Virus record (IMG/VR): IMGVR_UViG_3300020049_004016
Origin: an uncultured virus (IMG/VR IMGVR_UViG_3300020049_004016)
Taxonomy: Duplodnaviria; Heunggongvirae; Uroviricota; Caudoviricetes
Strand: one strand, 5' to 3'
DNA: 64,000 nucleotides
Position 1 is the first letter of the stretch. The number at the start of each line of letters is the position of its first letter. The notes under the pieces were generated by a model, which was not told the origin of the DNA, did not search any database, and saw only the letters and a program-made list of their open reading frames with translations. Made by a program: the position numbers and the translations under genes. Shown piece after piece: positions 1,138 to 54,928 of this stretch.

Positions 1138-1623
1138 ATGAGAAAAATAATAGATATAACCCCTAACAAAATCCTTGACTTTGAAAAAGACACTGATGAT
1201 TTTATCTTCATGTCTGAAGACGGGTCACAACTTCCTATTAGAAAACCCCCTCAGAAACGTCTCGAAGCCCTGCTAAACGAGTACGACTACGAATTGCCTA
1301 ACAGCGCAAACAAAATGCGTCAGTACGTCTTAAACAAATTGTTCGAGGCTGCTGAAGAAGGCGAACCCGGTTTATCTTTAAAAGCACTAGAGATACTAGG
1401 CCGTGTTACCGAGATCGGATTATTCACTACACGCATCGAAGTTTCTGTTGCCGACAAGCCGACGGCTGATCTAGAGAATGACCTCAGCGTCCTTTTAAAG
1501 AACTACGCTAAAAAAGATACCGACCCCGTCCAAGAGATCACTGACGAAGAGTTACGCGGTTATTCTGAAGAGATAAGCGAAGGTGTGTTCTCAGAAGAGT
1601 ATGTTGAGGAAGACGAGGAGTGA
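1138..1623 (+). CDS. Probable terminase small subunit
   Basis: Immediately upstream of and overlapping terL; LKALEILGR...GLFTTRIEV motif typical of TerS C-terminal regions. Confidence 0.65.
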   Translation: MRKIIDITPNKILDFEKDTDDFIFMSEDGSQLPIRKPPQKRLEALLNEYDYELPNSANKMRQYVLNKLFEAAEEGEPGLSLKALEILGRVTEIGLFTTRIEVSVADKPTADLENDLSVLLKNYAKKDTDPVQEITDEELRGYSEEISEGVFSEEYVEEDEE

Positions 1624-4118
1624 GTATTCCACTAGGCGATCTGACAATCGATGAGGATCTGCTCAAACAAGCACTCTCAACTGCACCGTTGAGCGAACGT
1701 GCAAGACTGATCGCACTCATCGAAGAACTCAAACGCAGACAGAACCGCGAGTTCGCGCAACAGAACTTCTTAGCGTTCGTGCAACAAGTGTGGCCTTCCT
1801 TCATCTATGGTCGGCATCACGCTCGCATGGCTCAAGAGTTCGAAAAGGTAGTGTCTGGAGAGAACAAGCGACTCATTATCAATCTTGGGCCGAGGCATAC
1901 AAAATCTGAGCTTGCGTCTTATCTCTTACCTGCATGGTATTTGGGTAAGAATCCAAGTGAAAAAATAATACAATGTTCGCACACTGCTGAACTTGCGGTT
2001 GGTTTTGGTCGTAAGGTTCGTAACTTAGTTGGGTCCGCAGCATACCAAGAAATATTCCCTGGCGTTGAGCTTCAAGCTGACTCTAAAGCCGCTGGAAGAT
2101 GGAATACAAGTGCCGGAGGAAGTTACTATGCGATAGGCGTATCAGGCGCGGTTACAGGGATCGGGGGTTCGCTAATCATTATTGATGATCCACATGCCCT
2201 CAAATTAGACACTGAGATAGCCACCACTGAAGGTTTTAAAACTATTGGTACTGTTGCCGTTGGTGACTATGTTTTTGCACCTGACGGTACTCCAACAAAG
2301 GTTGTTGCAAAATCAGAAGTGCGGCACGATAGGGAAATATACAAAGTTACCACTGACGACAATGTAGAAATATTTTGTGATGGTGGGCATCTTTGGAACT
2401 ATCGATCGGATACAAAACTAACTGCTCCGCATAGAAACGCAACTACAAGAGATTTGTCTGAATGGAATAAAAAAAGTGCACCGTGTTTGCCAAGACACAG
2501 TGCAGTTCAATATCATGAAAAAGATTATTTAATACCACCGTATGTTTTAGGTGCATGGCTCGGTGATGGGACAAGTTCACTAGGAAGAATTACTTCTCAC
2601 CCTGATGATGCGCCATATACTAGAGAACAGTTTGAACGTGAAGGATATGAAACGACCACACTTACAGATCCTTATAGTTTTGGTGTATTAAAATTACGAG
2701 CACAACTTATAGAAAAAAATCTATTAAATAACAAACATATTCCTGAAGAATATTTAATAGGATCTATTGAACAAAGAATGGATCTACTACAAGGTTTGAT
2801 GGACACAGACGGTAATGTGACCGCACAAGGTCAATGTTGTTTTCAAAACACTAATAAAAGAATAATTGATGGCGCTATTCAAATCATACACAGCCTTGGT
2901 GTAAAAGCTAAAGTTCATTCGTATTTCGACACTAGAGAAAGACACGCATCAAGAAAATTAGATTATAGAATAACTTTCAAACTACAAGACGCGGCTAGAA
3001 TGCCTAGAAAAGCGTGTAGGACTTTTACCCCAACAGACAAAAGATGCAGAAGTATCAAGGTTGAAAGAACAACTGAACGTGCTTCTGTACAATGTATAAC
3101 AGTTGATAGAGAAGATGGGTTGTTTCTTATTGGTAGAGAGTATGTTGTTACACATAACTCAGAACAAGAGGCTGCCATAGCCGCATCTAACCCAGAAGTT
3201 TACGATAAGGTCTACGAGTGGTATACATCAGGACCTCGTCAGCGTCTTCAACCCCAAGGAGCGATAATTATCGTTCAGACTCGCTGGTCGAAACGAGATT
3301 TAACTGGACAAGTGAGACAAAAAGAGTTAGATGGGGGTGGTGATAAGTGGCGGTTAGTCGAACTGCCCGCGATATTGCCTAGCGGCAAACCTCTGTGGCC
3401 TGAGTTCTGGTCTATAGAAGAATTAGAAGCCACTAGAAATGCGATCGATGTCTCTAAATGGCAAGCGCAGTACCAACAGAACCCAACATCTGAAGAAGGG
3501 GCGATCGTAAAGCGAGATTGGTGGCAACGATGGGAACAAGATACACCTCCACCTACCAGTTTTATCCTACAAGCGTGGGATACCGCGTTTGAAAAACACA
3601 ATCGAGCGGATTATAGTGCGTGTACGACGTGGGGGATCTTCAATCTTCCCGATGAGAAAGGAATTGATCGAGCAAATATAATTTTGTTGGACGCTAAACG
3701 TGATCGACTAGAGTTTCCGCAGTTAAAAGAAAAAGTATTGGGCGAGTATCGTTATTGGGAACCCGATTCGCTAATTATTGAAAAGAAAGCATCAGGCGCA
3801 CCATTGATTTACGAACTTCGTCACATGGGAATCGTCGTATCCGACTTTACACCGACCCGTGGTAACGATAAGATCTCCCGATTGAATGCGATATCTGACA
3901 TCTTTTCTTCCGGTCGAGTTTGGGCTCCAAATACACGCTGGGCAGATGAGGTTATTGACGAAGTTGCCGCCTTCCCCGCAGGTCAACACGATGATTATGT
4001 CGATTGTGTCAGCATGTCCCTCGCCTTATTTAGGAAAGGTGGTTATATTAGCACCAAATTGGACCGAGAAGATGAAGAATACGAGTACCGACGTAAAACA
4101 AGTAACTCTTATTATTAA
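1620..4118 (+). CDS. terL: Terminase large subunit containing an intein
   Basis: RLIINLGPRHTKS Walker A-like, LIIIDDP Walker B, IVQTRW motif III, RNase H-like nuclease AWDTA...HDDYVD. Confidence 0.95.
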   Translation: MSIPLGDLTIDEDLLKQALSTAPLSERARLIALIEELKRRQNREFAQQNFLAFVQQVWPSFIYGRHHARMAQEFEKVVSGENKRLIINLGPRHTKSELASYLLPAWYLGKNPSEKIIQCSHTAELAVGFGRKVRNLVGSAAYQEIFPGVELQADSKAAGRWNTSAGGSYYAIGVSGAVTGIGGSLIIIDDPHALKLDTEIATTEGFKTIGTVAVGDYVFAPDGTPTKVVAKSEVRHDREIYKVTTDDNVEIFCDGGHLWNYRSDTKLTAPHRNATTRDLSEWNKKSAPCLPRHSAVQYHEKDYLIPPYVLGAWLGDGTSSLGRITSHPDDAPYTREQFEREGYETTTLTDPYSFGVLKLRAQLIEKNLLNNKHIPEEYLIGSIEQRMDLLQGLMDTDGNVTAQGQCCFQNTNKRIIDGAIQIIHSLGVKAKVHSYFDTRERHASRKLDYRITFKLQDAARMPRKACRTFTPTDKRCRSIKVERTTERASVQCITVDREDGLFLIGREYVVTHNSEQEAAIAASNPEVYDKVYEWYTSGPRQRLQPQGAIIIVQTRWSKRDLTGQVRQKELDGGGDKWRLVELPAILPSGKPLWPEFWSIEELEATRNAIDVSKWQAQYQQNPTSEEGAIVKRDWWQRWEQDTPPPTSFILQAWDTAFEKHNRADYSACTTWGIFNLPDEKGIDRANIILLDAKRDRLEFPQLKEKVLGEYRYWEPDSLIIEKKASGAPLIYELRHMGIVVSDFTPTRGNDKISRLNAISDIFSSGRVWAPNTRWADEVIDEVAAFPAGQHDDYVDCVSMSLALFRKGGYISTKLDREDEEYEYRRKTSNSYY
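2196..3158 (+). mobile_element. Class 3-type intein (321 aa) with LAGLIDADG homing endonuclease
   Basis: DDPH/ALKLDT...YVVTHN/SEQE junctions; block B GHLW, block F VQCITV, block G THN; LGAWLGDG and LQGLMDTDG motifs. Confidence 0.92.
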
Positions 4119-7328: not shown

Positions 7329-7737
7329 AATATTGTTAGCAACTAATCCTAAAAATCCGCAAATTGTGGGTTCTGTGGATATGGAAGCTTCAAACGAAGA
7401 AAAGGCCACACAGCTTCCTATTCCTTCTGGTTATCGAATACTATGTGCTTTGCCTCAATTGGAGAAAGAGTATGAGAGCGGGTTACTCAAAGCCAACGAA
7501 ACACTACACCATGAAAATCTTCTGGCTACTGTGCTGTTTGTTGTGGCTATGGGCGCTGATTGTTATGGAGACAAGACTCGTTTCCCCAGCGGCCCTTGGT
7601 GCAAAGTTGGAGACTTTATTGTGGTTAGACCTAACGCGGGCACACGACTAAAGATTCATGGTAAGGAATTCCGGGTAATAAATGACGATTCTGTAGAAGG
7701 TATCGTTTTGGATCCTAGAGGTGTATCAAGACTATGA
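7321..7737 (+). CDS. groES: Co-chaperonin GroES-like protein
   Basis: PSGYRIL...SGLL...VVAMG...CKVGDFIV...GKEFRVINDDSVEGIV Cpn10 pattern. Confidence 0.85.
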   Translation: MSKILLATNPKNPQIVGSVDMEASNEEKATQLPIPSGYRILCALPQLEKEYESGLLKANETLHHENLLATVLFVVAMGADCYGDKTRFPSGPWCKVGDFIVVRPNAGTRLKIHGKEFRVINDDSVEGIVLDPRGVSRL

Positions 7738-8315
7738 AGACGTGCACAAGATGCAAAATATCAAAAGATAAAGTATTTTTTAGTAAACAAACAGTGGCTA
7801 AAGATGGGTTACAACCGCACTGTAAAGAGTGTAAAAAACTATATCAGCAAACATGTGTTACTAGGAATGAAACTTCTAAAAGATACAGAGATGCCAATAA
7901 AGAATTGTGCATGGCTAGAACTTTAAAATGTGTAAAAAACAATAGGGAGAAATATAACAAGCTTGCATCTGATTGGGCTTTTAAAAACAAAGAAAGAGTT
8001 CTTCAAAATAGGAGGAATTGGTATAGGTTAAATAGTTCTAAACCTATAGAGGCACAAAGAAGACGAGTTAAAAGAATGCAAGGATTAAAATTATCACCGG
8101 CATTTCAAGCAGAAGTCGACGGAATGTATTTATATTGCAATATTATGAACATGTTTGCCAAAAATTTTTCAGAAAGATTGGAAGTAGATCACATAATACC
8201 TTTGAATGGAAAGTTGGTATCAGGATTACATGTTCTTAATAATTTACAAATACTAACTGCTTCTGAAAATAGAAGCAAAGGTAACAGAATCAATTTAAAT
8301 GAGGTAACAAGCTAA
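7734..8315 (+). CDS. Free-standing HNH homing endonuclease
   Basis: CTRC...CKEC zinc knuckle; EVDHIIPLNGKLVSGLHVLNNLQILTASENRSKGN; AT-rich relative to flanks. Confidence 0.9.
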   Translation: MKTCTRCKISKDKVFFSKQTVAKDGLQPHCKECKKLYQQTCVTRNETSKRYRDANKELCMARTLKCVKNNREKYNKLASDWAFKNKERVLQNRRNWYRLNSSKPIEAQRRRVKRMQGLKLSPAFQAEVDGMYLYCNIMNMFAKNFSERLEVDHIIPLNGKLVSGLHVLNNLQILTASENRSKGNRINLNEVTS

Positions 8316-17535: not shown

Positions 17536-18212
17536 CAACGACGAATACCGCTACGTTCAATATGAGTCTCGATGAGATAATCGAAGAATGCTACGAACGC
17601 GTGGGTTCGGAAGCGAGATCGGGCTACGATTTCAAGACTGCTAGACGTTCACTTAATCTATTAACAATAGAATGGGCTTCAAAAGGCATAAATTTATGGC
17701 TCATAGAACAAGGCTCTATCCCTTTACTGACTAACATTGGCACGTATGATTTACCATCCGACACTATCGATTTGCTTGATCAAGTGGTACGTACAGGTAC
17801 CGGCACTACTCAAGTGGATATCAACTTATCTCGTATTTCTAGTTCTACTTACGCTACTATACCTGCTAAGAACACGTCGGCACGTCCTGTGCAGGTTTGG
17901 ATAAACAGACAAGCGCAAATACCACAAATCAACGTATGGCCTAAACCTAATAACGATAGTTATACGTTCGTCTATTGGCGCTTAAGACGTATCCAAGATG
18001 CCGGTAATGCGAGCAATACACAAGACATACCGTTTAGATTCTTACCTGCGCTGATCGCAGGGTTAGCATATCAGTTATCAATGAAGCTACCTGGCGTTGA
18101 TCCTAATCGTAGCGTTATGCTCAAAGCAGTTTATGATGAAGCGTTTCAAATCGCTAGTGAGGAAGATCGTGAAAAGGCATCTTTGCTTGTCGTCCCTAGG
18201 ATGCTTAGGTAG
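17532..18212 (+). CDS. Head-tail adaptor / tail tubular protein A-like
   Basis: TARRSLNLLTIEW..GINLW..RPVQVW..VWPKP..DIPFRFLPALIAGLAY. Confidence 0.7.
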   Translation: MTTTNTATFNMSLDEIIEECYERVGSEARSGYDFKTARRSLNLLTIEWASKGINLWLIEQGSIPLLTNIGTYDLPSDTIDLLDQVVRTGTGTTQVDINLSRISSSTYATIPAKNTSARPVQVWINRQAQIPQINVWPKPNNDSYTFVYWRLRRIQDAGNASNTQDIPFRFLPALIAGLAYQLSMKLPGVDPNRSVMLKAVYDEAFQIASEEDREKASLLVVPRMLR

Positions 18213-18292
18213 TGGCTATAAAATGTGTGACTGGTGTGGTTGACAATTGTGTGACTGATGTGATATACTCTAATTTTTATAGGAGAAATCAC

Positions 18293-18892
18293 ATGGCTAA
18301 TAAGTACACAGAAAACTCAGTTAAACATTTGGGTATATCTACAAAGTGCGGAGTATATATTCTTACCGAAACATTATCCGGTAGGACATATATTGGGAGT
18401 TCTAAAAATATGAGAACTAGAGTTGCTCATATTTTTAGCAAGTTAAAAACAATGTATCGACCTAGCCATTTGTATGAAAGTTTTACTGAAGCTTTTAACG
18501 CACATGGTAGTAAAATATTTTTAGCAAAAGAATTGGTGATATGTTCGGAAGAAAATTTATTAATGTATGAGCGAGCATGTATAGAAGCTTTTTGTCCAAC
18601 AGAAAACACACTTATGCGTAGTGATGGACGTATATGTTTTTCTGAAAAAGAAAGAGTTTTAAAAAGTGAAAGAGTAAAAGCGTTATGGGCTACCGAAGAA
18701 TATCGAAACAATGCTATAGCTGCTAGAAAAGGTAAAGCATATAATAAAGGTTATAAATGTACTCCGGCTCAAGTTGAAAATAGAAGAAAGGCTGCTCGAA
18801 TATCTAATATAAAAAGAAAGTTTGGTTTGGATTGGAAAGAGCAATACATATTAAAATACCCAGACTTTGCGGGTGATGTAAGTGACCGTTAA
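18293..18892 (+). CDS. Free-standing GIY-YIG homing endonuclease with its own promoter
   Basis: CGVYILTETLSGRTYIGSS..R; RBS AGGAGA before ATG 18293; TTGACA-N18-TATACT at 18240-18269. Confidence 0.85.
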   Translation: MANKYTENSVKHLGISTKCGVYILTETLSGRTYIGSSKNMRTRVAHIFSKLKTMYRPSHLYESFTEAFNAHGSKIFLAKELVICSEENLLMYERACIEAFCPTENTLMRSDGRICFSEKERVLKSERVKALWATEEYRNNAIAARKGKAYNKGYKCTPAQVENRRKAARISNIKRKFGLDWKEQYILKYPDFAGDVSDR

Positions 18893-21791: not shown

Positions 21792-22214
21792 ATGGCAGCT
21801 TTTGCAAAATATAACTCAGGTGTTGAAGCACTGGTTGAAGGGATTAATGCAGGTTCAGACACTTGGAAAATAGCATTAACAAACAGAACACCTGTACCCT
21901 CAACAGATGCTGTACTTGCAGATATTAGCGACCTGCCCACTGCTGGCGGTTATACCGCGGGTGGTAATGCGTGTTCTGTAACAAGCTCTGCTCAAACATC
22001 AGGCACTTACAAATTAGTCTTAGCCTCACCTGCGACATGGACAGCTTCGGGTGTAGGCTTTACTTTTAGATATGCGGTTCTTTACGATGTAACAGCCAGC
22101 AATGCGCTGGTCGGTTATTGGGATTATGGTTCTTCTATTGTAATGAGCGGAACGAATGGTGATACGTTTACCGTCACATTGGATGGTTCTCAAGGGGTGT
22201 TTTCAGTTTCCTAG
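21792..22214 (+). CDS. Virion structural protein
   Basis: DTWKIAL...GGYTAGG...FRYAVLYD...LVGYWDYG. Confidence 0.65.
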   Translation: MAAFAKYNSGVEALVEGINAGSDTWKIALTNRTPVPSTDAVLADISDLPTAGGYTAGGNACSVTSSAQTSGTYKLVLASPATWTASGVGFTFRYAVLYDVTASNALVGYWDYGSSIVMSGTNGDTFTVTLDGSQGVFSVS

Positions 22215-22806
22215 GAGTTTTAAACACAGCATCTTTTGGATTCCAACCAAAATTTAATCTGTTGGTGATTGTGGTTATATTTATACCGGATAATCTTGAC
22301 CAATCTGAAACGCATTTGGTTTCATTATCAATTGTTATATAACGCGTTGTTTTACGAGATAAACATATCTCTCTCATTGTTTTAGCAACAGGTGTGTTTA
22401 TTAAATCATCGTGTGACCATCCATGATTTAATCTGTAACTAAGAGTCGATTGAGGGACATTGAGTTCATTTGCCCATTCTTGTAAACATTGGGATTTATT
22501 GTTAGCAGTTATAATTGTGTTGTTACGTTTATTTTGAGCTTGCTCTTTTAGAGAAGCCCATCTACAATTAGAAGGAGAATAGCCTGATGAATTATCGATT
22601 CTATCCAAGGTATGGTTTAAAGGGCGTTCACCCATATCAGATAAAAAGTTTTCAAAAAATAACCAAGGTTCGTAAACAGTAATTCCACGACCACCATATA
22701 AATGATAATGGCTGTTTTTTGTATTATTACATCTAGCTTTCATAGCATACCAACTTCCATAAGTTGGCGTAGGAGAATTATTTTTAGTATGACCATGTGT
22801 TTTCAT
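22174..22806 (-). CDS. HNH homing endonuclease inserted antisense in the late operon
   Basis: TYGSWYAMKARC...YGGRGITV...FENFLSDMGERP..TLDRIDN..GYSPSNCRWA..EQAQN, plus two repeated DNA-binding modules; likely start MKTHGH at 22806. Confidence 0.88.
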   Translation of the reverse strand: MKTHGHTKNNSPTPTYGSWYAMKARCNNTKNSHYHLYGGRGITVYEPWLFFENFLSDMGERPLNHTLDRIDNSSGYSPSNCRWASLKEQAQNKRNNTIITANNKSQCLQEWANELNVPQSTLSYRLNHGWSHDDLINTPVAKTMREICLSRKTTRYITIDNETKCVSDWSRLSGINITTITNRLNFGWNPKDAVFKTPRKLKTPLENHPM

Positions 22807-22878
22807 GTAAAAGCCTTTTTCAAATAAAAATAGGGTAACATGATAATGATTAAAATACAAACTTAATAGAGAATAATT

Positions 22879-49088: not shown

Positions 49089-49344
49089 GAGCGTCCTCCA
49101 TTGAGTTGATAACGCGCACATCACAACCGAGTGCACGTCTACGTTCATGATCGAGTTCTTGTAACGGTGTCGCGTGTTTACCTTCGTTCTTCAGTTCAAC
49201 GAATATGATCACTCCTCCAGGTAGTGTTACGATACGATCAGGTACTGACCTTCGTCCGCTTATGAACTTTTCAGCCATACCACCCAATTCTTTAACTCGC
49301 TTGACGAGTGCTTGCTCAATGTGTCGTTCAAGCATTATATCCAA
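49072..49344 (-). CDS. VRR-NUC domain nuclease
   Basis: LERHIE...VPDRIV...IFVELK...TPLQ. Confidence 0.9.
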   Translation of the reverse strand: MDIMLERHIEQALVKRVKELGGMAEKFISGRRSVPDRIVTLPGGVIIFVELKNEGKHATPLQELDHERRRALGCDVRVINSMEDARAFKK

Positions 49345-50131
49345 CCTCTTTTAATAATTCGTTAGCCATACTGATGTACACTGGGTAGTCCACATCTTGC
49401 GGGAAGATGTCTGGTAGATCCATTAACGGTCTTGCGCCACCTGACATCGGCACTCGGTTTGAATTCTTCGCGTAGTGTATGCAGATCTCTTTATCAACGT
49501 CACGCGAGTAGTAAAAGCGTACGGCTTTACCGAGGTAACCACCTTGCCATGTTGCACCGCCAGTCACCTTACGCACTGTGACGAACTGAGTTATGTCGTT
49601 ACATTCCATGATGGTTTGCTCGATAGGGGTGTTGCGCGCCACGCAATACGCAACCGCTTTCTGTACGATCGAACAGTTCGGGTTCTTAGCAAGACCTGTG
49701 GATGCGAAGATACCTTTGCCTTTGATCTTACCGTCGGTTTTAACAGCGATGTAGTTATTAACATCTCTCGATACGAGTTTTGAATACTCGGTAGTTTCTA
49801 ACTGATAACCTGTATCTAGCTCCCAATCAAAAGCGACTTCCTCACAAGCATCTAAAAGGGATAAGGGAGCATAGCAAACAATACCATCAGTGTTTGCAGA
49901 TACTATTTGTATACCTTTATCCTCCATGCGTTCTATTAAAGACAATAGCGCAAGCTGTCCGGTCAAGGTTGTTTGTAATAATAATTCTGGCGCATAGAGA
50001 ACACTGTATTTTGATCCTAGCTTGCCGAACGAGCCATTGGTCGAGAGTTTTTTTGAATCTGATTCTGTTTTGTATTTTAGTAGTTCAGCTTTGGCTTCGG
50101 ACAATCTATTTTTAATTTCTATTTTAGTCAT
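49328..50131 (-). CDS. Family B DNA polymerase, C-terminal part (motifs B and C, thumb)
   Basis: KKLSTNGSFGKLG (motif B), VSANTDGI (motif C), RDVNNY, KGKG. Confidence 0.9.
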   Translation of the reverse strand: MTKIEIKNRLSEAKAELLKYKTESDSKKLSTNGSFGKLGSKYSVLYAPELLLQTTLTGQLALLSLIERMEDKGIQIVSANTDGIVCYAPLSLLDACEEVAFDWELDTGYQLETTEYSKLVSRDVNNYIAVKTDGKIKGKGIFASTGLAKNPNCSIVQKAVAYCVARNTPIEQTIMECNDITQFVTVRKVTGGATWQGGYLGKAVRFYYSRDVDKEICIHYAKNSNRVPMSGGARPLMDLPDIFPQDVDYPVYISMANELLKEVGYNA

Positions 50132-50132
50132 T

Positions 50133-50864
50133 TTATTTATCTCTCTTTTTCCAAATATAATTCATATATGTTGGTTTATATCCATTACAAACCGAATATA
50201 TATTTTGCCATTTATACGTAGGATTTTCTAAAATTATATCGTCGACAGAATCCCATGTTCTTATAAAAACATTTTCTCTAGTGAATTGATCAAATATATA
50301 TTTCCTTTTAGCTATTTTAACTTTGGCTACCATATCTTTTCTTTTGTCAAAGTCAGACCATGTTTGTATTGAACTGATTGACATTTTGTTTCTCCATTCT
50401 TCACCATAAATAAGGCCTCCAGAATGTCTATCTTTTGCAATATCAGACATTTTTTGTTTTTGTTCGTCTGACCATCGATTACCATAGTTAGGGTTTTTCT
50501 CTCCCAAATTTGTCCCTTTCAATTCGTCACAATAATCTTTAGCCCATTTTCCCCCCGATAAAGCATCTTGACGAATGTTATATCCAAATCCCCTATCTTT
50601 TGTATTATAGTGATCCATCCAATATGCTTCTCTATCTAATAAAATAGATTTATCATAAGTTTCAAATGTTTCTATAATTTCAAATTTAAAAACATCTGCT
50701 CCGTAAATTCTTCCGTCAGCGTGGAGATGTTTGTTAAAATCTTTATGTCTATTTTCTTTTTTTAAATTACATTTATGGCTATACCATCGAGATGTGGTAT
50801 CTTTACACGCCCCGATGTATTTCTTATTATTAACAGTGTTTGTGATTGAATAAATAGCGATCAT
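50133..50864 (-). CDS. GIY-YIG homing endonuclease inserted in the polymerase gene
   Basis: IAIYSITNTVNNKKYIG..RW..H..REAYW..GYN; GEKNPNYG and SDEQKQKMS NUMOD3-like repeats; own RBS AGGAGA. Confidence 0.9.
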   Translation of the reverse strand: MIAIYSITNTVNNKKYIGACKDTTSRWYSHKCNLKKENRHKDFNKHLHADGRIYGADVFKFEIIETFETYDKSILLDREAYWMDHYNTKDRGFGYNIRQDALSGGKWAKDYCDELKGTNLGEKNPNYGNRWSDEQKQKMSDIAKDRHSGGLIYGEEWRNKMSISSIQTWSDFDKRKDMVAKVKIAKRKYIFDQFTRENVFIRTWDSVDDIILENPTYKWQNIYSVCNGYKPTYMNYIWKKRDK

Positions 50865-50893
50865 GATGTTCTCCTAGTTGGGATAATACCATG

Positions 50894-51982
50894 CTACATG
50901 TTTTTTAATTCGTTTTCAAGATTATTTATTTCTTTAGTTAACTCAGCGATCTTTTTCTTTGCAAAGTTTCTTTTTTGAACAATATCTTTATATATTTTTA
51001 AGAAAGGTTTACCCATAGATTTTGGTGCTAATTTCTGCTGTAAGATGATGCTTGGATAGTAGCCCAAACAATCTTTCTCTTTTAGGAACCATCCTTCTTT
51101 AACATTTATATACTGCGACTTCTCACATGAGTGTAGACCACCAATACCCATCTGATACTTACGACCGCCAATTCTAATGTCTTCTTTCTTTAACCAATCT
51201 GGTAGCACTAGCGCACCGTTGATACCTAACTTAAACGGTTCTTTGATAACACGTGCCAAGATGTTGTTCAATTGCTCGCTCTTGAACGATACGATCTCAG
51301 GGTCTTGATAATAGAACTTCGCGTCATCAGCAACGGTAGGTCGTGAGGGTTTCTTACCGGTAATCTTTTGCAGTTCGCTGGAGATGACCGTCTCAGCAAT
51401 CTGCGCATCAGACTTAGAGCGCAAATCCATACCGTACTGCTCAGTCATCGACTCGCGTAGCGTGATCTGAGGGATGAGTGCTTGATAGAGTTCTTGTGTG
51501 GTCTGTAAGTCGTTCTCACAATAGTTTCTTAGCTCAACCCGTTGCTCAGGTGAGATGAGTGCAGACGGTTCGATAGGTAGGTCTTGCAGTTTCTTTGAGT
51601 GCAGCCTTCCACCGTAGATCTTCAAGGAAGACATACCAGGTGCTACTTCGATAAGATCAATATGATCCCATTTTGGGCAGGGTAGATTGTTATCTTGGTA
51701 AGTCCGATACGAGGATCGGTTTGATCCGATGATCGAGTCGCATAGACTTTTTATGTGTTTGTTGTTCCATCCACAGAGTGCTGCCACGATAATGGGTAAG
51801 TCGAAGTTATTCCCGTTGAAGCTGATCGTGGTGTTCTTACGCATGATATTGGACAGAACTGCTAGATCTAGCGGATGGTCTTCGTACAACTCAAGGTGGA
51901 TAACTTTACCAGTCTCTACGCATTTGGCCGCGAAGAGAAAGTAGTTAGTGTAGATCTCTGTATCGATGATTATCTTTTTCAT
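50894..51982 (-). CDS. Family B DNA polymerase, N-terminal part (3'-5' exonuclease and motif A)
   Basis: IIDTEIY (ExoI), FNGNNFDL (ExoII), YCENDL (ExoIII), GIGGLHS, DCLGYYPSII (motif A). Confidence 0.9.
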   Translation of the reverse strand: MKKIIIDTEIYTNYFLFAAKCVETGKVIHLELYEDHPLDLAVLSNIMRKNTTISFNGNNFDLPIIVAALCGWNNKHIKSLCDSIIGSNRSSYRTYQDNNLPCPKWDHIDLIEVAPGMSSLKIYGGRLHSKKLQDLPIEPSALISPEQRVELRNYCENDLQTTQELYQALIPQITLRESMTEQYGMDLRSKSDAQIAETVISSELQKITGKKPSRPTVADDAKFYYQDPEIVSFKSEQLNNILARVIKEPFKLGINGALVLPDWLKKEDIRIGGRKYQMGIGGLHSCEKSQYINVKEGWFLKEKDCLGYYPSIILQQKLAPKSMGKPFLKIYKDIVQKRNFAKKKIAELTKEINNLENELKNM

Positions 51983-52008
51983 TTTATGTTTCCTTGATAG
52001 GGTAGCTA

Positions 52009-52506
52009 TCAATTAATTGGTGCTGACGGGTGGTATATCTTTTTAGCATCTAAATATGCTTGATATGCTTCTTCTTTGGTATCAAAATATCCTAAATGTA
52101 TGTTTTTATAATTTGCTTTTATTCTAGCTCTCCATTTTTTATTTTTCTTATTTACTCCTGGATATCCTGATGTGTTTATACTTTTTAATGTTTGATTATG
52201 ACAATTCTCCATGTGTGTGACAAGTCGTAAATTGCATAATCTATTGTCAGACCTATTTCTATTTATATGATCTATCCTTAAGTGTTCTGGTATATCTCCA
52301 TTTGAAATTATCCAAGCCAACCTATGAGACTTATATGGTTTTCTATCAACCACTATGTATGGATACCCATAATGATCTAAAGGACCAAAAATAACTGTAT
52401 CTTTTGTAGCGTTAGACCCAACCGTAATTAATCTTTTAAAACTACCAACTTCAGGATCATATTCAAACAACTCTAACAATCTTTCTTGCGAAGGATGTGG
52501 GTTCAT
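52009..52506 (-). CDS. HNH endonuclease with AP2 DNA-binding domain
   Basis: HRLAW..IDHINRNRSDNRLCNLRLVT..EN; SGYPGV..KWRARI..IHLGYFDTKEEA. Confidence 0.92.
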   Translation of the reverse strand: MNPHPSQERLLELFEYDPEVGSFKRLITVGSNATKDTVIFGPLDHYGYPYIVVDRKPYKSHRLAWIISNGDIPEHLRIDHINRNRSDNRLCNLRLVTHMENCHNQTLKSINTSGYPGVNKKNKKWRARIKANYKNIHLGYFDTKEEAYQAYLDAKKIYHPSAPIN

Positions 52507-52517
52507 TTCTTTATCTC

Positions 52518-52626
52518 ATAAAAAAAGCTACACTCTCAATTCGCGGTAGGAATGGCTTGAAATTATGCCACGCGGTTTGAAAATATAGCTTTGTTTAAAT
52601 TTCAATTTAAGGTTCCTACACCTGAA
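52518..52626 (-). ncRNA. c4/CI-like structured leader 1 (upstream of the HNH-AP2 gene)
   Basis: Nested stems ending in a U-run; bulge and loop complementary to upstream leader segments; homologous to 53983-54089. Confidence 0.7.
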
Positions 52627-52649
52627 ACTAATTATAACACGGTAATGAG

Positions 52650-52672
52650 AAAGCCCCAACTTAATGGGGCTT
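52650..52672 (-). terminator. Terminator hairpin after the SSB gene
   Basis: AAGCCCCA-N7-TGGGGCTT. Confidence 0.7.
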
Positions 52673-52679
52673 AATTTAT

Positions 52680-53204
52680 TTAGAATACGTCGTCTTCGTC
52701 TGAATCGAATGCGTCGAAATCGTTTAGACTGCCTGAAGAACCATCTCCAAAAGGTTGACCATCCTTGAAGAACTGAATGCCTAATAGAGTAGCATTTATA
52801 CGCTTACCCCACGCGTTATCTTGACTCCAGATCTCGATACTCGCATTGACATAACAACCTGAGTAAGGCTTACCATCATCTTCGGCCAGTGGAGACTTGT
52901 CTCTGTCGATAACCAGTGGACGTTTTTTAGAGCTGGCTTTTAAACTGAAGTGATTAGCGTAACCATCATAGTCAACCAAATCACCGTCACGTAAGCACAA
53001 CTTTTCAGGGCCAACTTTAGCACCCTTAAGATTGGTCTTGATCAGTTCTTTGATCTGAGCTTGGATTGATTCGATCTGATCCGCTTGCGTTTCTTTGTCA
53101 AGCAGGAAAGTACCTTCGAACCCAGTTTCTTCACCGCTGAATACAGCTTTCTTGAATAATGAAGGGAAAGACAGACGTACGTTTTTTAAGATTATTTTAG
53201 CCAT
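52680..53204 (-). CDS. Single-stranded DNA-binding protein (DUF2815-like)
   Basis: VRLSFPSLF; CLRDGD; YSGCYVNASI; GIQFFKDG; acidic tail ending in Phe. Confidence 0.88.
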   Translation of the reverse strand: MAKIILKNVRLSFPSLFKKAVFSGEETGFEGTFLLDKETQADQIESIQAQIKELIKTNLKGAKVGPEKLCLRDGDLVDYDGYANHFSLKASSKKRPLVIDRDKSPLAEDDGKPYSGCYVNASIEIWSQDNAWGKRINATLLGIQFFKDGQPFGDGSSGSLNDFDAFDSDEDDVF

Positions 53205-53252
53205 TGTTATTTTTCCTTTTAGGATTGAGTTTTAAGTTTTATTTTTACAGCG

Positions 53253-53287
53253 TGTTAAGTATAACTTAACTTTTATTCGGATGTCAA
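53253..53287 (-). promoter_or_regulatory. sigma70 promoter with overlapping 19-bp operator
   Basis: TTGACA-N18-TATACT on the - strand; TGTTAAG-TATAA-CTTAACT at 53253-53271. Confidence 0.75.
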
Positions 53288-53970
53288 ATTTTATTTTCTA
53301 ATCTTGCCCAACTAACCGACTGAGCATATTCTGTTACTTTTTGTTTTGCGAACACATATATCTCTTTATAGTGCATGTTTTCATTCATACCTTTTCGTAT
53401 CGCTGTGGAAGCTATGTTCTCAGCGACTTGTAAAAATCCTATCTGCATAAGATCTAGTGTATCTCTAAAATTACCAGAAGAACTTTTACTTTGTTCCAAC
53501 ATATCTAAAGCTTTATATTCCATCTTTGTTAAATTAGCATAATACATTTTTGCATTCACACTAGATTGATCGGTTGCATACTCTACAAAATCTTGGATAG
53601 TATCTGTCGTTTCTTTTCTAACAGCTTTGCCTTGAAGTCTTGCCGCTTTCCAATCTAGATTTGAACGTGTTTTTAATAACTCAGACTCCATCATATTGAA
53701 AGCTTCAAGAAACTTCTCTTTCCAAACCATTGCTTTCTTACCAGTAAAACCCATAACTAACATTGAGAAACCATTTCTAGTTATTACGTATTCTTGATAA
53801 GTCCTACCTTTATCATCTTGATAATCAATTTGCTCAAAATTGAGCCGATTAAATTCACTACTAGATTCTAAATTTTCTATTGCTCTGATAACATTCTTGT
53901 GAGCTTTGCCAAAATACTCAGCGATTATCCTAGAAGTGGTTGTCATTTCTTTAGTAACTAACTCATTCAT
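53284..53970 (-). CDS. Rha family phage regulatory protein
   Basis: TTSRIIAEYFGKAHKNVIRAI; NF...Y.DDKGR; ITRNGFSMLVMGFTGKKA..WKEKFLEAFNMME. Confidence 0.92.
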   Translation of the reverse strand: MNELVTKEMTTTSRIIAEYFGKAHKNVIRAIENLESSSEFNRLNFEQIDYQDDKGRTYQEYVITRNGFSMLVMGFTGKKAMVWKEKFLEAFNMMESELLKTRSNLDWKAARLQGKAVRKETTDTIQDFVEYATDQSSVNAKMYYANLTKMEYKALDMLEQSKSSSGNFRDTLDLMQIGFLQVAENIASTAIRKGMNENMHYKEIYVFAKQKVTEYAQSVSWARLENKI

Positions 53971-53982
53971 TTTATTACTCGC

Positions 53983-54089
53983 ATAAAAAAAGCTGATCTC
54001 AATTGCCGGGTAGTAATGGCTCAGAAGTTTGCCACCGACATTTAGAGATACAGCTTTGTTTAACTACTGATTTAACGGTTACTACACCG
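53983..54089 (-). ncRNA. c4/CI-like structured leader 2 (upstream of the Rha gene)
   Basis: Same architecture as leader 1 with compensatory changes; TTGACA-N18-TATTAT promoter at 54097-54126. Confidence 0.7.
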
Positions 54090-54122
54090 AGGCTTAATAA
54101 TAACCTCGGTTTGAAACATTTG

Positions 54123-54377
54123 TCAAATTTTATTTTTCTCCTCGCATTCTTGTAAAAACTTTTGAAATGCTTCGATAGCATCCCAATAACCATCTTGAGT
54201 CAAACTGCCTTGTTGTCTCAATTTTGCGTGCAATTCCATTTTCTCTGTATTACTCAAAAACCCACGTTCAGGCTGTGCAAGAAACTCTTGAATATCAATT
54301 TTTAGTTCTGGACACACTAGATTATGATATTGCATCTCATCTAAGCAGCTTTCTAACAAATCCCGTTCTTTAGACAT
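54123..54377 (-). CDS. MSKER/LAQPE family protein C
   Basis: MSKERDLL..FLAQPER. Confidence 0.7.
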   Translation of the reverse strand: MSKERDLLESCLDEMQYHNLVCPELKIDIQEFLAQPERGFLSNTEKMELHAKLRQQGSLTQDGYWDAIEAFQKFLQECEEKNKI

Positions 54378-54444
54378 TATAATTCCTTAACAAAACCAAA
54401 GCACAATAGCTACAAACACTAAAGACGTATATAGTATATTTTCA

Positions 54445-54693
54445 CTACTCATCATCTACCCCTATATCGTGTGCCATTTCAATAGCTCTCCCTAGAATTG
54501 TTGGGTAACCACTATAATAATTTGTTAAATCCTCAAGGCGTTCATTGCTCAAAGGCTGAAGTTTCTTTTCAGGTTGGGCGAGTAGCTCTATGGCTCTACC
54601 AATTAGAACATCAGCGTTACGCTGTAGACCGCCCATGCTCGTGCATTCTAATAAGATTTTCATATCCTTTATTAACTCTCTTTCTTTAGACAT
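54445..54693 (-). CDS. MSKER/LAQPE family protein D
   Basis: MSKERELI..LAQPEK..PLSN..AHDIGVDDE. Confidence 0.7.
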   Translation of the reverse strand: MSKERELIKDMKILLECTSMGGLQRNADVLIGRAIELLAQPEKKLQPLSNERLEDLTNYYSGYPTILGRAIEMAHDIGVDDE

Positions 54694-54928
54694 TTTTATT
54701 CCTCATAAAATTTACAAATTTCTCTGCGCAATTCATACACAACCATTCGTTTTTTCTATCATAATTATTACCTGCACCATTACCTTGGTAATCCCTACTC
54801 CCTAGGTGACCTTTATAAGTTACTATCATTTCCCCCCATTTTTGTTTGTCTTTACCATTGCTTGTATCACCAATATGTCCGCAACGATCACATATACAAT
54901 TTACTACCATGTGTTCTGTTTTAGACAT
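54686..54928 (-). CDS. Zn-ribbon hypothetical protein
   Basis: CDRCG...LCMNC. Confidence 0.6.
   Translation of the reverse strand: MSKTEHMVVNCICDRCGHIGDTSNGKDKQKWGEMIVTYKGHLGSRDYQGNGAGNNYDRKNEWLCMNCAEKFVNFMRNKNV

What the first reader, a model, noticed from the sequence alone, without database searches (positions are those of the whole stretch)
52518..54126. Two covarying c4/CI-like antisense-attenuator leaders attached to unrelated accessory genes
Seen on the - strand after promoters. Leader 1 (HNH): GGT-GTAGGA-ACC..TTGAAATT..AAAGCTA..CGCG-TGGC-ATAATTTCAA-GCCA-TTCCTAC-CGCG..TAGCTTTTTTT. Leader 2 (Rha): GGT-GTAGTA-ACC..TCAGTAGTT..AAAGCTG..GTCGG-TGGC-AAACTTCTGA-GCCA-TTACTAC-CCGGC..CAGCTTTTTTT. 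In each, the bulge (TTCCTAC or TTACTAC) complements the 5' hairpin loop and the apical loop complements the second 5' box (one mismatch in leader 2). Both pairings change compensatorily between copies. Known: P1 c4 and P4 CI RNAs use loop-plus-bulge pairing to leader boxes to cause premature termination. Inference: portable, sequence-coded RNA switches with distinct specificities that silence a toxic homing endonuclease and Rha, possibly also in trans against co-infecting relatives.
Basis: partly seen in the sequence, partly recalled or inferred. Interest (0 to 1): 0.82.

Follow-up and report, generated by a model that had tools for sequence, protein, structure and literature searches.

The report
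Coded self-pairing phage leader RNA switches
Two genes inserted into this uncultured phage each carry a roughly 105-base leader RNA whose stop-signal hairpin holds two short "keys" that match two "locks" at the RNA's own start; dozens of related phage leaders use different but always matching keys, which points to a portable, uncatalogued on-then-off switch related to the P1 c4 and P4 CI immunity RNAs.

Summary
Both leaders are real. Each follows a -10 box and has a 5' hairpin (box a), a box b, and a long hairpin with a 7-nt bulge (a') and apical loop (b'), then seven U and the gene (HNH-AP2; Rha). I found 37 distinct copies with 16 a-box codes. In a search that fixed no key letters, 35 of 45 hits were members, and bulge and box a matched in all 27 distinct codes (6-8 nt). 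Close relatives lack these cassettes, carry one where the window has none, or carry a fully recoded leader behind the same promoter. The key layout equals P1 a1-b1/c4, but there is no Rfam match (P1 and P4 controls hit), no P2 arm, no downstream a2/b2, and the keys cap an intrinsic-terminator-like stem. Folding of partial transcripts favours self-pairing a:a'/b:b' over the hairpin; full-length RNA folds as the terminator. Best model (0.55): self-pairing lets early transcripts read through; accumulated short RNA binds new leaders in trans and forces termination, giving a code-specific pulse. Termination, trans action and toxicity are untested; no RNA data were available. Only 19 of 37 copies precede a nuclease or Rha/Ant gene.

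The parts
54121..54136 (-). 16-bp direct repeat, upstream copy, ending in the -35 box of the rha promoter
   Evidence: the repeat pair bounds the segment missing in relative L352 and a contig joint 53302-54143 in DNA run X1
54097..54126 (-). sigma70-type promoter of leader 2 (TTGACA-18-TATTAT)
   Evidence: 11 of 12 matches; kept in L362
54086..54110 (.). 7-bp inverted repeat flanking the -10 box (possible operator; role unknown)
   Evidence: kept in L362
54076..54089 (-). leader 2, 5' hairpin carrying box a (GTAGTAA, 54085-54079)
54062..54070 (-). leader 2, box b
   Evidence: 8 of 9 pairs with the apical loop
53989..54057 (-). leader 2, long hairpin: lower stem, upper stem, inner 4-bp stem, loop b' 54030-54021, bulge a' 54016-54010
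53985..53991 (-). leader 2, U7 tract at the stem base (putative intrinsic terminator)
   Evidence: sequence; tract of 6-9 T in 36 of 36 copies
53284..53970 (-). Rha-family regulator, 228 aa
   Evidence: PF09669 E 2.8e-29; PHROGs Rha-like/anti-repressor
53282..53297 (-). 16-bp direct repeat, downstream copy, ending in the -35 box of the ssb promoter
52680..53204 (-). ssDNA-binding protein (core gene between the two cassettes)
   Evidence: PF10991
52651..52672 (.). terminator-like hairpin after ssb
52631..52639 (-). extended -10 (TG-n-TATAAT) of leader 1
   Evidence: sequence; not listed by the promoter scan
52610..52623 (-). leader 1, 5' hairpin carrying box a (GTAGGAA, 52619-52613)
52598..52605 (-). 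leader 1, box b
   Evidence: 8 of 8 Watson-Crick pairs with the loop
52524..52592 (-). leader 1, long hairpin with loop b' 52566-52557 and bulge a' 52552-52546
52520..52526 (-). leader 1, U7 tract
   Evidence: sequence
52009..52506 (-). HNH-AP2 endonuclease, 165 aa
   Evidence: PF13392 E 2.3e-15; phrog_99 E 3e-60; absent at this site in L352 and L362

Best explanation
A self-contained, code-specific transcription attenuator that senses its own short RNA. Shown by sequence comparison: the transcript starts with box a (hairpin loop) and box b, and ends in a long U-tract hairpin whose bulge and tip match a and b. Computed: while the 3' half of the lower stem is still being made, the nascent RNA prefers a:a' plus b:b' self-pairing, which takes the top of the hairpin out of play; the complete RNA folds into the hairpin with bulge and loop free, and in that state b cannot reach its own loop. 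Inferred: in a cell without this RNA many transcripts read through, so the gene is expressed; terminated RNAs accumulate, dock on a and b of new transcripts of the same code, let the hairpin zip down and stop transcription. The result is an early pulse and then shut-off, silence in a cell that already holds the same code, and no cross-talk between cassettes with different codes. Promoter, leader and gene move between phage sites as a unit.
For: Covariation: 13 sequences, a:a' 91 of 91 cells paired, b:b' 88.9% with 5 of 9 columns changed on both sides, 0 of 500 shuffles; stems in 33 sequences 93.3% paired, 25 of 31 pairs changed on both sides. Blind set: pattern without key letters, 35 of 45 loci members; fixed-window match to own keys 6.93 versus 3.66 nt (a) and 6.59 versus 3.91 (b), 0 of 5000 permutations, 27 codes. 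-10 box perfect in 25 of 36 and at least 5 of 6 in 33 of 36; T tract 6-9 in 36 of 36. Partial transcripts ending after the upper stem: at least 3 a:a' pairs in 22 of 27 and b:b' in 14 of 27, both window leaders included; full length 0 of 27. With a-b held unpaired the inner stem forms in 23 of 27 versus 9 of 27. Geometry: 19-28 bp from base to tip against 4-6 nt from b to the stem base in 31 of 36. Same promoter and site with all keys recoded in L362; co-resident copies differ in code in the window, L383 and G006. Precedent: P4 CI causes premature termination by pairing with seqA and seqC (PMC4825925, section 21 read).
Against: No expression, termination or trans data. The lower stem (mean -16.2 kcal/mol) outweighs b:b' (-5.8), so read-through must be a kinetic trap, and equilibrium folding of truncated RNA without pseudoknots or polymerase is only a proxy. 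b:b' reached 3 pairs in only 14 of 27 codes, and with a-b blocked the upper stem formed in only 14 of 27 (not in the window's Rha leader or L362). Trans docking must occur within about 60 nt of transcription. In IsrK the short RNA activates rather than represses. 18 of 37 copies precede RecT, a methylase, small unknown ORFs or no ORF, so 'guard for toxic genes' is too narrow. Four other nuclease-like ORFs of the window have no such leader. Members are related phages, so shuffle counts are not probabilities.
Confidence: 0.55

Rival explanations
1. Cis-only attenuator: self-pairing competes with the terminator during transcription and sets a fixed or elongation-rate-dependent leak; the short RNA does nothing in trans and the codes drift with compensation.
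For: The two-state folding needs no second molecule; no second target with both boxes was found in the window (best other site, 37350, has box a and only a 4-nt run for b); no downstream a2/b2 signal.
Against: Keys are recoded wholesale while promoter, linker and ribosome-binding region stay the same (L362 versus window), 16 a-codes exist, and co-resident copies differ; that is expected if cross-talk between molecules is selected against, less so for a private fold. The finished hairpin displays both keys exactly as C4 does.
Confidence: 0.25
2. IsrK-like positive control: the short RNA binds nascent or read-through RNA in trans and raises expression, making a copy-number or co-infection sensor.
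For: IsrK, a structural homolog of P4 seqA, acts in trans on its own read-through transcript to switch on translation. The a-b boxes of a short RNA could bind another transcript's keys.
Against: The ribosome-binding region lies 3' of the U tract and is not paired in the folds; binding to an already formed loop and bulge would not stop the lower stem; no isrK match.
Confidence: 0.08
3. The short RNA is the product: a stable small RNA that dimerises or rings up through a/b to a'/b' contacts, or silences other phages' leaders, while downstream genes merely live on terminator leak.
For: Intermolecular pairing is the only way to use b in the finished fold; two copies (L370, second copy in L383) have no ORF close behind; C4-like RNAs are abundant stand-alone RNAs in Acinetobacter (PMC5320573 passages).
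Against: 35 of 37 copies have an ORF starting close behind the U tract, mostly 18-23 nt from its first T; leader and gene are gained and lost together.
Confidence: 0.08
4. A DNA-level element (recombination or single-strand hairpin site of a mobile cassette), not an RNA switch.
For: It travels with mobile nucleases and sits next to direct and inverted repeats.
Against: Many G-U pairs, fixed distance from a -10 box, one-sided T tract, and crossing pairings that covary.
Confidence: 0.04

Closest known systems
Phage P1/P7 C4 antisense RNA with a1/b1 and a2/b2 (Rfam RF01695 C4, RF03163 c4-a1b1)
   Same: In NC_005856 a1 is a 7-nt box in a small hairpin, b1 follows 7 nt later, and C4 shows a 9-nt apical loop (b') and a 7-nt 3' bulge (a') in nested order. 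The c4-a1b1 alignment contains hairpin loops GUGGUAA and GUAGGAA, identical to boxes of this family (PMC2864571 supplement 5 part 65). Rha/Ant genes follow 5 of 37 copies.
   Different: No Rfam match. No P2 tetraloop arm, no first c4-a1b1 hairpin, no a2/b2 before the gene, no icd; b lies 4-6 nt from the stem base against about 65 nt in P1; the keys cap a stem that ends in U6-9. C4 is cut out by RNase P (passages); not testable here.
Satellite phage P4 CI RNA with seqA/seqC
   Same: An RNA from the leader pairs with the leader and causes premature termination (PMC4825925 section 21).
   Different: P4 hits C4, isrK and (below threshold) c4-a1b1 models; this family hits none. CI is processed and uses a downstream seqC; here key, lock and terminator are one 105-nt unit with upstream locks only.
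Gifsy-1 IsrK
   Same: A leader with an intrinsic terminator gives a short RNA that acts in trans on its own read-through RNA.
   Different: IsrK activates translation of a coupled ORF; no sequence-structure match; no two-key loop-plus-bulge head on its terminator is described in the section read.
pT181/Inc18 plasmid antisense attenuators (recalled, no call)
   Same: Antisense binding to a nascent leader blocks an antiterminator so that an intrinsic terminator forms; sequence sets the specificity group.
   Different: There the antisense RNA comes from the opposite strand and is fully complementary; here it would be the terminated leader itself, pairing through two boxes of 6-9 nt.

Membership tests
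C4 antisense RNA (RF01695) | Match to the covariance model | tested here: not met
   None in the window at gathering or at E up to 10 in 51900-54400; none in 11 leader-bearing loci at E up to 0.5, while P1 (68.8 bits) and P4 (74.9) hit
C4 antisense RNA (RF01695) | Three stems P1, P2, P3 with a three-way junction | tested here: not met
   P1 C4 folds with a tetraloop side arm (alignment rows); the 31 leaders parsed were selected as single unbranched hairpins, and both window copies fold so unprompted
C4 antisense RNA (RF01695) | Two keys: apical loop of about 9-10 nt and 7-nt 3' bulge | tested here: met
C4 antisense RNA (RF01695) | Upstream a1 in a hairpin loop and b1 about 7-8 nt later, nested with b' and a' | tested here: met
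   P1 annotation
C4 antisense RNA (RF01695) | Downstream a2/b2 at the ribosome-binding site of the next gene | tested here: not met
   Own versus foreign keys within 40 nt downstream: a 3.67 versus 3.68, b 4.70 versus 4.32 (103 of 5000); six windows tested, best counts 103 and 170 of 5000, no 7-mer at a fixed place. The 6-nt match before rha is kept in L362 although its key differs. L181 has a 6-nt match at its start region.
C4 antisense RNA (RF01695) | Release by RNase P as a 77-nt RNA | not testable with these tools
   No RNA holder listed
c4-a1b1 (RF03163) | Model match and two tandem hairpins | tested here: not met
   No match; only the second hairpin is present
P4 CI / seqA-seqC immunity | Upstream and downstream targets, isrK-like seqA | tested here: not met
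   No isrK match, no downstream target
P4 CI / seqA-seqC immunity | Small RNA causes premature termination in trans | not testable with these tools
   Needs transcription assays
c4-2 motif (Weinberg 2017) | Consensus structure and gene context | tested here: inconclusive
   Main text calls it a likely distant homolog of a described RNA; the supplement could not be read. No family of that name appeared; that Rfam holds it is recalled, not checked.
Intrinsic terminator | Hairpin directly followed by a U tract | tested here: met
   T6-9 at the stem base in 36 of 36; function not tested, and the simple scan did not list it

The most novel reading that the evidence does not exclude
A minimal self-immunity module in which antisense key, target and terminator are fused in one 105-nt leader. 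It gives homing endonucleases, antirepressors and other mobile phage genes a burst of expression only in cells that lack the same code, and the codes diversify to escape silencing by resident relatives, so that phage cassettes form many RNA-defined incompatibility groups and supply a natural library of orthogonal transcription switches.
Probability: 0.35. Interest if true: 0.8.

Novelty: new variant of a known kind. Interest (0 to 1): 0.62.

Why it matters
It extends c4/CI-type RNA control from lysogeny immunity regions to free-moving cassettes in a phage with no recognisable integrase or CI repressor among the ORFs scanned, and offers an answer to how free-standing homing endonucleases limit their own dose. 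Being one short unit with 16 natural lock codes, it makes the mechanism of CI-type termination (cis antiterminator against trans binding) easy to test in vitro, and could serve as a set of orthogonal RNA switches. The family is in no Rfam model that I could find, and my nine literature searches returned no description of it; the scan's own notes report look-alike architectures in several other phages, so the design seems common rather than unique.

Tried and rejected
Rfam at three settings: no relevant match. No genome G000 is held; the nearest record G001 does not cover this region and has no copy. My first pair count had box a off by one column (corrected). blastn of two leaders against cultured phages gave only short chance matches or none, so no cultured host system is known. 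No RNA holder listed; contigs laid cannot show RNA ends. Downstream a2/b2 and second targets in the window: not found. A conserved leader peptide from the ATG after the U tract: rejected by reading the alignments, since it is followed by a stop at once in several copies and is ATT or ATA in others. Search for this family in PMC10690425 supplements: no hit in the files searched, but files 1 and 2 could not be searched. Look-ups of earlier findings by sequence, by relatives and by a second word set gave nothing. L172/L173, L175 and L186 score weakly (20-30 bits) and were left out of all counts.

Full report
Setting. The window looks like most of the genome of an uncultured tailed phage: terminase, portal and head genes on the + strand, and a leftward replication block with exonuclease, ssb, a split polymerase and helicase. 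A relative with the same block is a 64,984-nt record rated complete. No integrase or CI-type repressor appeared among the 46 ORFs scanned with Pfam, which are not all ORFs of the window; a Cro-like gene is present. The host is unknown; the best cultured matches of the ssb are under 60% identical.

Observation. Both leaders are as described. They fold into a small 5' hairpin and a long hairpin with a 4-bp inner stem, a 10-nt loop and a 7-nt 3' bulge, followed by seven U (z -5.31 and -2.90). The bulge matches the 5' hairpin loop (box a) 7 of 7 in both; the apical loop matches box b 8 of 8 and 8 of 9. Models built from the family find only these two copies in the window. Rfam finds nothing.

Family. 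Pattern scans gave members in 8 of 14 loci, 9 of 40, 9 of 18, 5 of 120 and 1 of 33. In the first 13 distinct sequences a:a' was paired in all 91 cells with 2 columns changed on both sides, and b:b' in 88.9% with 5 of 9 columns changed on both sides; no shuffle of 500 reached the score and slid partners fell to 29-48%. These patterns fixed part of the keys, so I ran one that fixed only the linker and the stem base: 35 of 45 loci were members and 10 were not. The set parsed has 36 distinct copies, 27 distinct bulge-plus-loop codes and 16 a-boxes (17 strings, two of which I merged); a 37th copy came. In windows fixed by position, each bulge matched its own box a over 6-8 nt (mean 6.93 against 3.66 for foreign keys) and each loop its own box b (6.59 against 3.91; weakest 3 nt, in the degenerate L350); 0 of 5000 permutations. 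The stems covary too: 25 of 31 pairs changed on both sides in 33 sequences, on an alignment fitted to the model. The phages are related, so these counts are not probabilities. A perfect TATAAT precedes box a in 25 of 36, at least 5 of 6 in 33 of 36, mostly 9-13 nt away, so box a is at the very start of the RNA; a T tract of 6-9 closes all 36.

Portability. L352, 92-96% identical in flanking genes, lacks both cassettes; the rha cassette is bounded by a 16-bp repeat that contains the -35 box. The same phage carries promoter, leader and an HNH gene at the exonuclease start, where the window has none. L362 keeps the rha promoter, palindrome, linker and start region but has a different box a, bulge, inner stem, loop and box b, all matched, before a barely related Rha protein (31% over 48 residues). 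L176 and L182 have nearly the same leader at the same site before Bro-N/ANT and Rha respectively. Contigs from DNA runs show joints that skip or replace the rha gene (laid at 80% likeness, sides of about 30 letters in some, so weak). Genes behind the 37 copies: HNH or GIY-YIG nuclease 14, Rha or Bro-N/ANT 5, RecT 1, ParB-methylase 1, zinc-finger of endonuclease VII type 1, small unassigned ORFs 13, none nearby 2.

Mechanism. Two facts constrain it. First, in the finished hairpin the tip is 19-28 bp from the base while box b ends 4-6 nt from the base in 31 of 36; with A-form dimensions (established knowledge) b cannot reach its own loop, so b:b' is either an alternative fold or intermolecular. 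Second, folding partial transcripts shows that alternative: ending after the upper stem, 22 of 27 codes hold at least 3 a:a' pairs and 14 of 27 at least 3 b:b' pairs, both window leaders among them, whereas full-length RNA holds none in 27 of 27. Holding a to b unpaired, as a bound RNA would, raises inner-stem formation from 9 to 23 of 27 and upper-stem formation from 1 to 14 of 27. The simplest reading is a classical attenuator in which self-pairing is the antiterminator and the terminated RNA, with loop and bulge exposed, is the repressor of later transcripts. That step is inferred. The lower stem is stronger than b:b' (means -16.2 and -5.8 kcal/mol), so read-through depends on kinetics that I could not model. 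Each window leader pairs well with its own head and poorly with the other, and co-resident copies in L383 and G006 also differ, as expected if cross-talk is avoided. One consequence worth testing: leader 1 lies before the polymerase genes as well; a promoter-like site inside the HNH gene (52223-52195) might bypass it.

Comparison. The GenBank annotation of P1 places a1 (7 nt, in a hairpin) and b1 7 nt later, then C4, then a2 and b2 before icd: the same two-key, nested layout. The published c4-a1b1 alignment has hairpin loops identical to two of the boxes here (PMC2864571, supplement 5 part 65), which suggests descent or a shared constraint on the kissing loop. But P1 and P4 hit C4 and c4-a1b1 models while 11 leader-bearing loci hit none, my models do not find P1 or P4, the P2 arm is missing, there is no downstream target and the keys sit on a U-tract stem. 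It works like c4/CI; it is not a member of RF01695. What I saw of the papers: PMC2864571, passages and supplement 5 parts 41 and 65 (its text supplement S1 was unreadable); PMC4825925, passages and section 21; PMC3632133, PMC5320573, PMC8546580, passages; PMC5737381, passages, supplement unreadable, so the c4-2 motif remains uncompared; PMC10690425, passages and part of the supplements, files 1 and 2 unsearchable, so the family could be among its 10,006 candidates. The pT181 comparison is recalled.

Earlier notes of this scan describe similar terminator leaders with loop-plus-bulge keys in other phages, two of them before nucleases. They are unchecked and I could not compare their sequences; they lower the uniqueness, not the reality, of this finding.

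Verdict. A real, strongly covarying, portable leader RNA family with many specificity codes; a new variant of the c4/CI kind with key, lock and terminator fused. Direction and trans action remain to be shown. Interest 0.62.

Noticed in passing
window 49328-52012 (-): The DNA polymerase is split into two ORFs by a free-standing GIY-YIG gene (50133-50864); both ends at the break carry charged, coiled-coil-like extensions. L352 has it intact (593 aa) and L362 is broken at a different site by another nuclease-like ORF.
   Followed up: partly
window 54086-54110: A 7-bp inverted repeat flanks the -10 box of the rha promoter and is kept in L362; possible operator for Rha or Cro.
   Followed up: no
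window 1620-4118 (+): Large terminase with an inserted homing-endonuclease (LAGLIDADG-like) region, probably an intein.
   Followed up: partly
window 7734-8315, 18212-18892, 22174-22860, 50133-50864: Further nuclease-like ORFs without this leader; the 22174-22860 ORF had no Pfam match and is nuclease-like by eye only.
   Followed up: partly
L172:3000-3103 (-), L173:2997-3100 (+): A second leader type after a terminase gene: two variants differ at two a-box letters and the bulge changes to match, but no box b was seen.
   Followed up: partly
L175:2997-3137, L186:3001-3135: Branched long hairpins with the same a-box and its complement in a loop, ending in T runs; may bridge this family and true three-way C4 RNAs.
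   Followed up: no
L370 and second copy in L383 (L416:1328-1616): These two leaders are followed not by an ORF but by a shared non-coding stretch; in L416 a tRNA match (32.4 bits) lies about 100 nt downstream.
   Followed up: no
L183, L187, L189: Here an HNH gene lies upstream, its end overlapping the leader's promoter, and the leader precedes a 40-aa ORF.
   Followed up: partly
window 54123-54928 (-): A run of small ORFs with repeated start-region sequences, absent in L352, with no Pfam or PHROG match for the three scanned.
   Followed up: no
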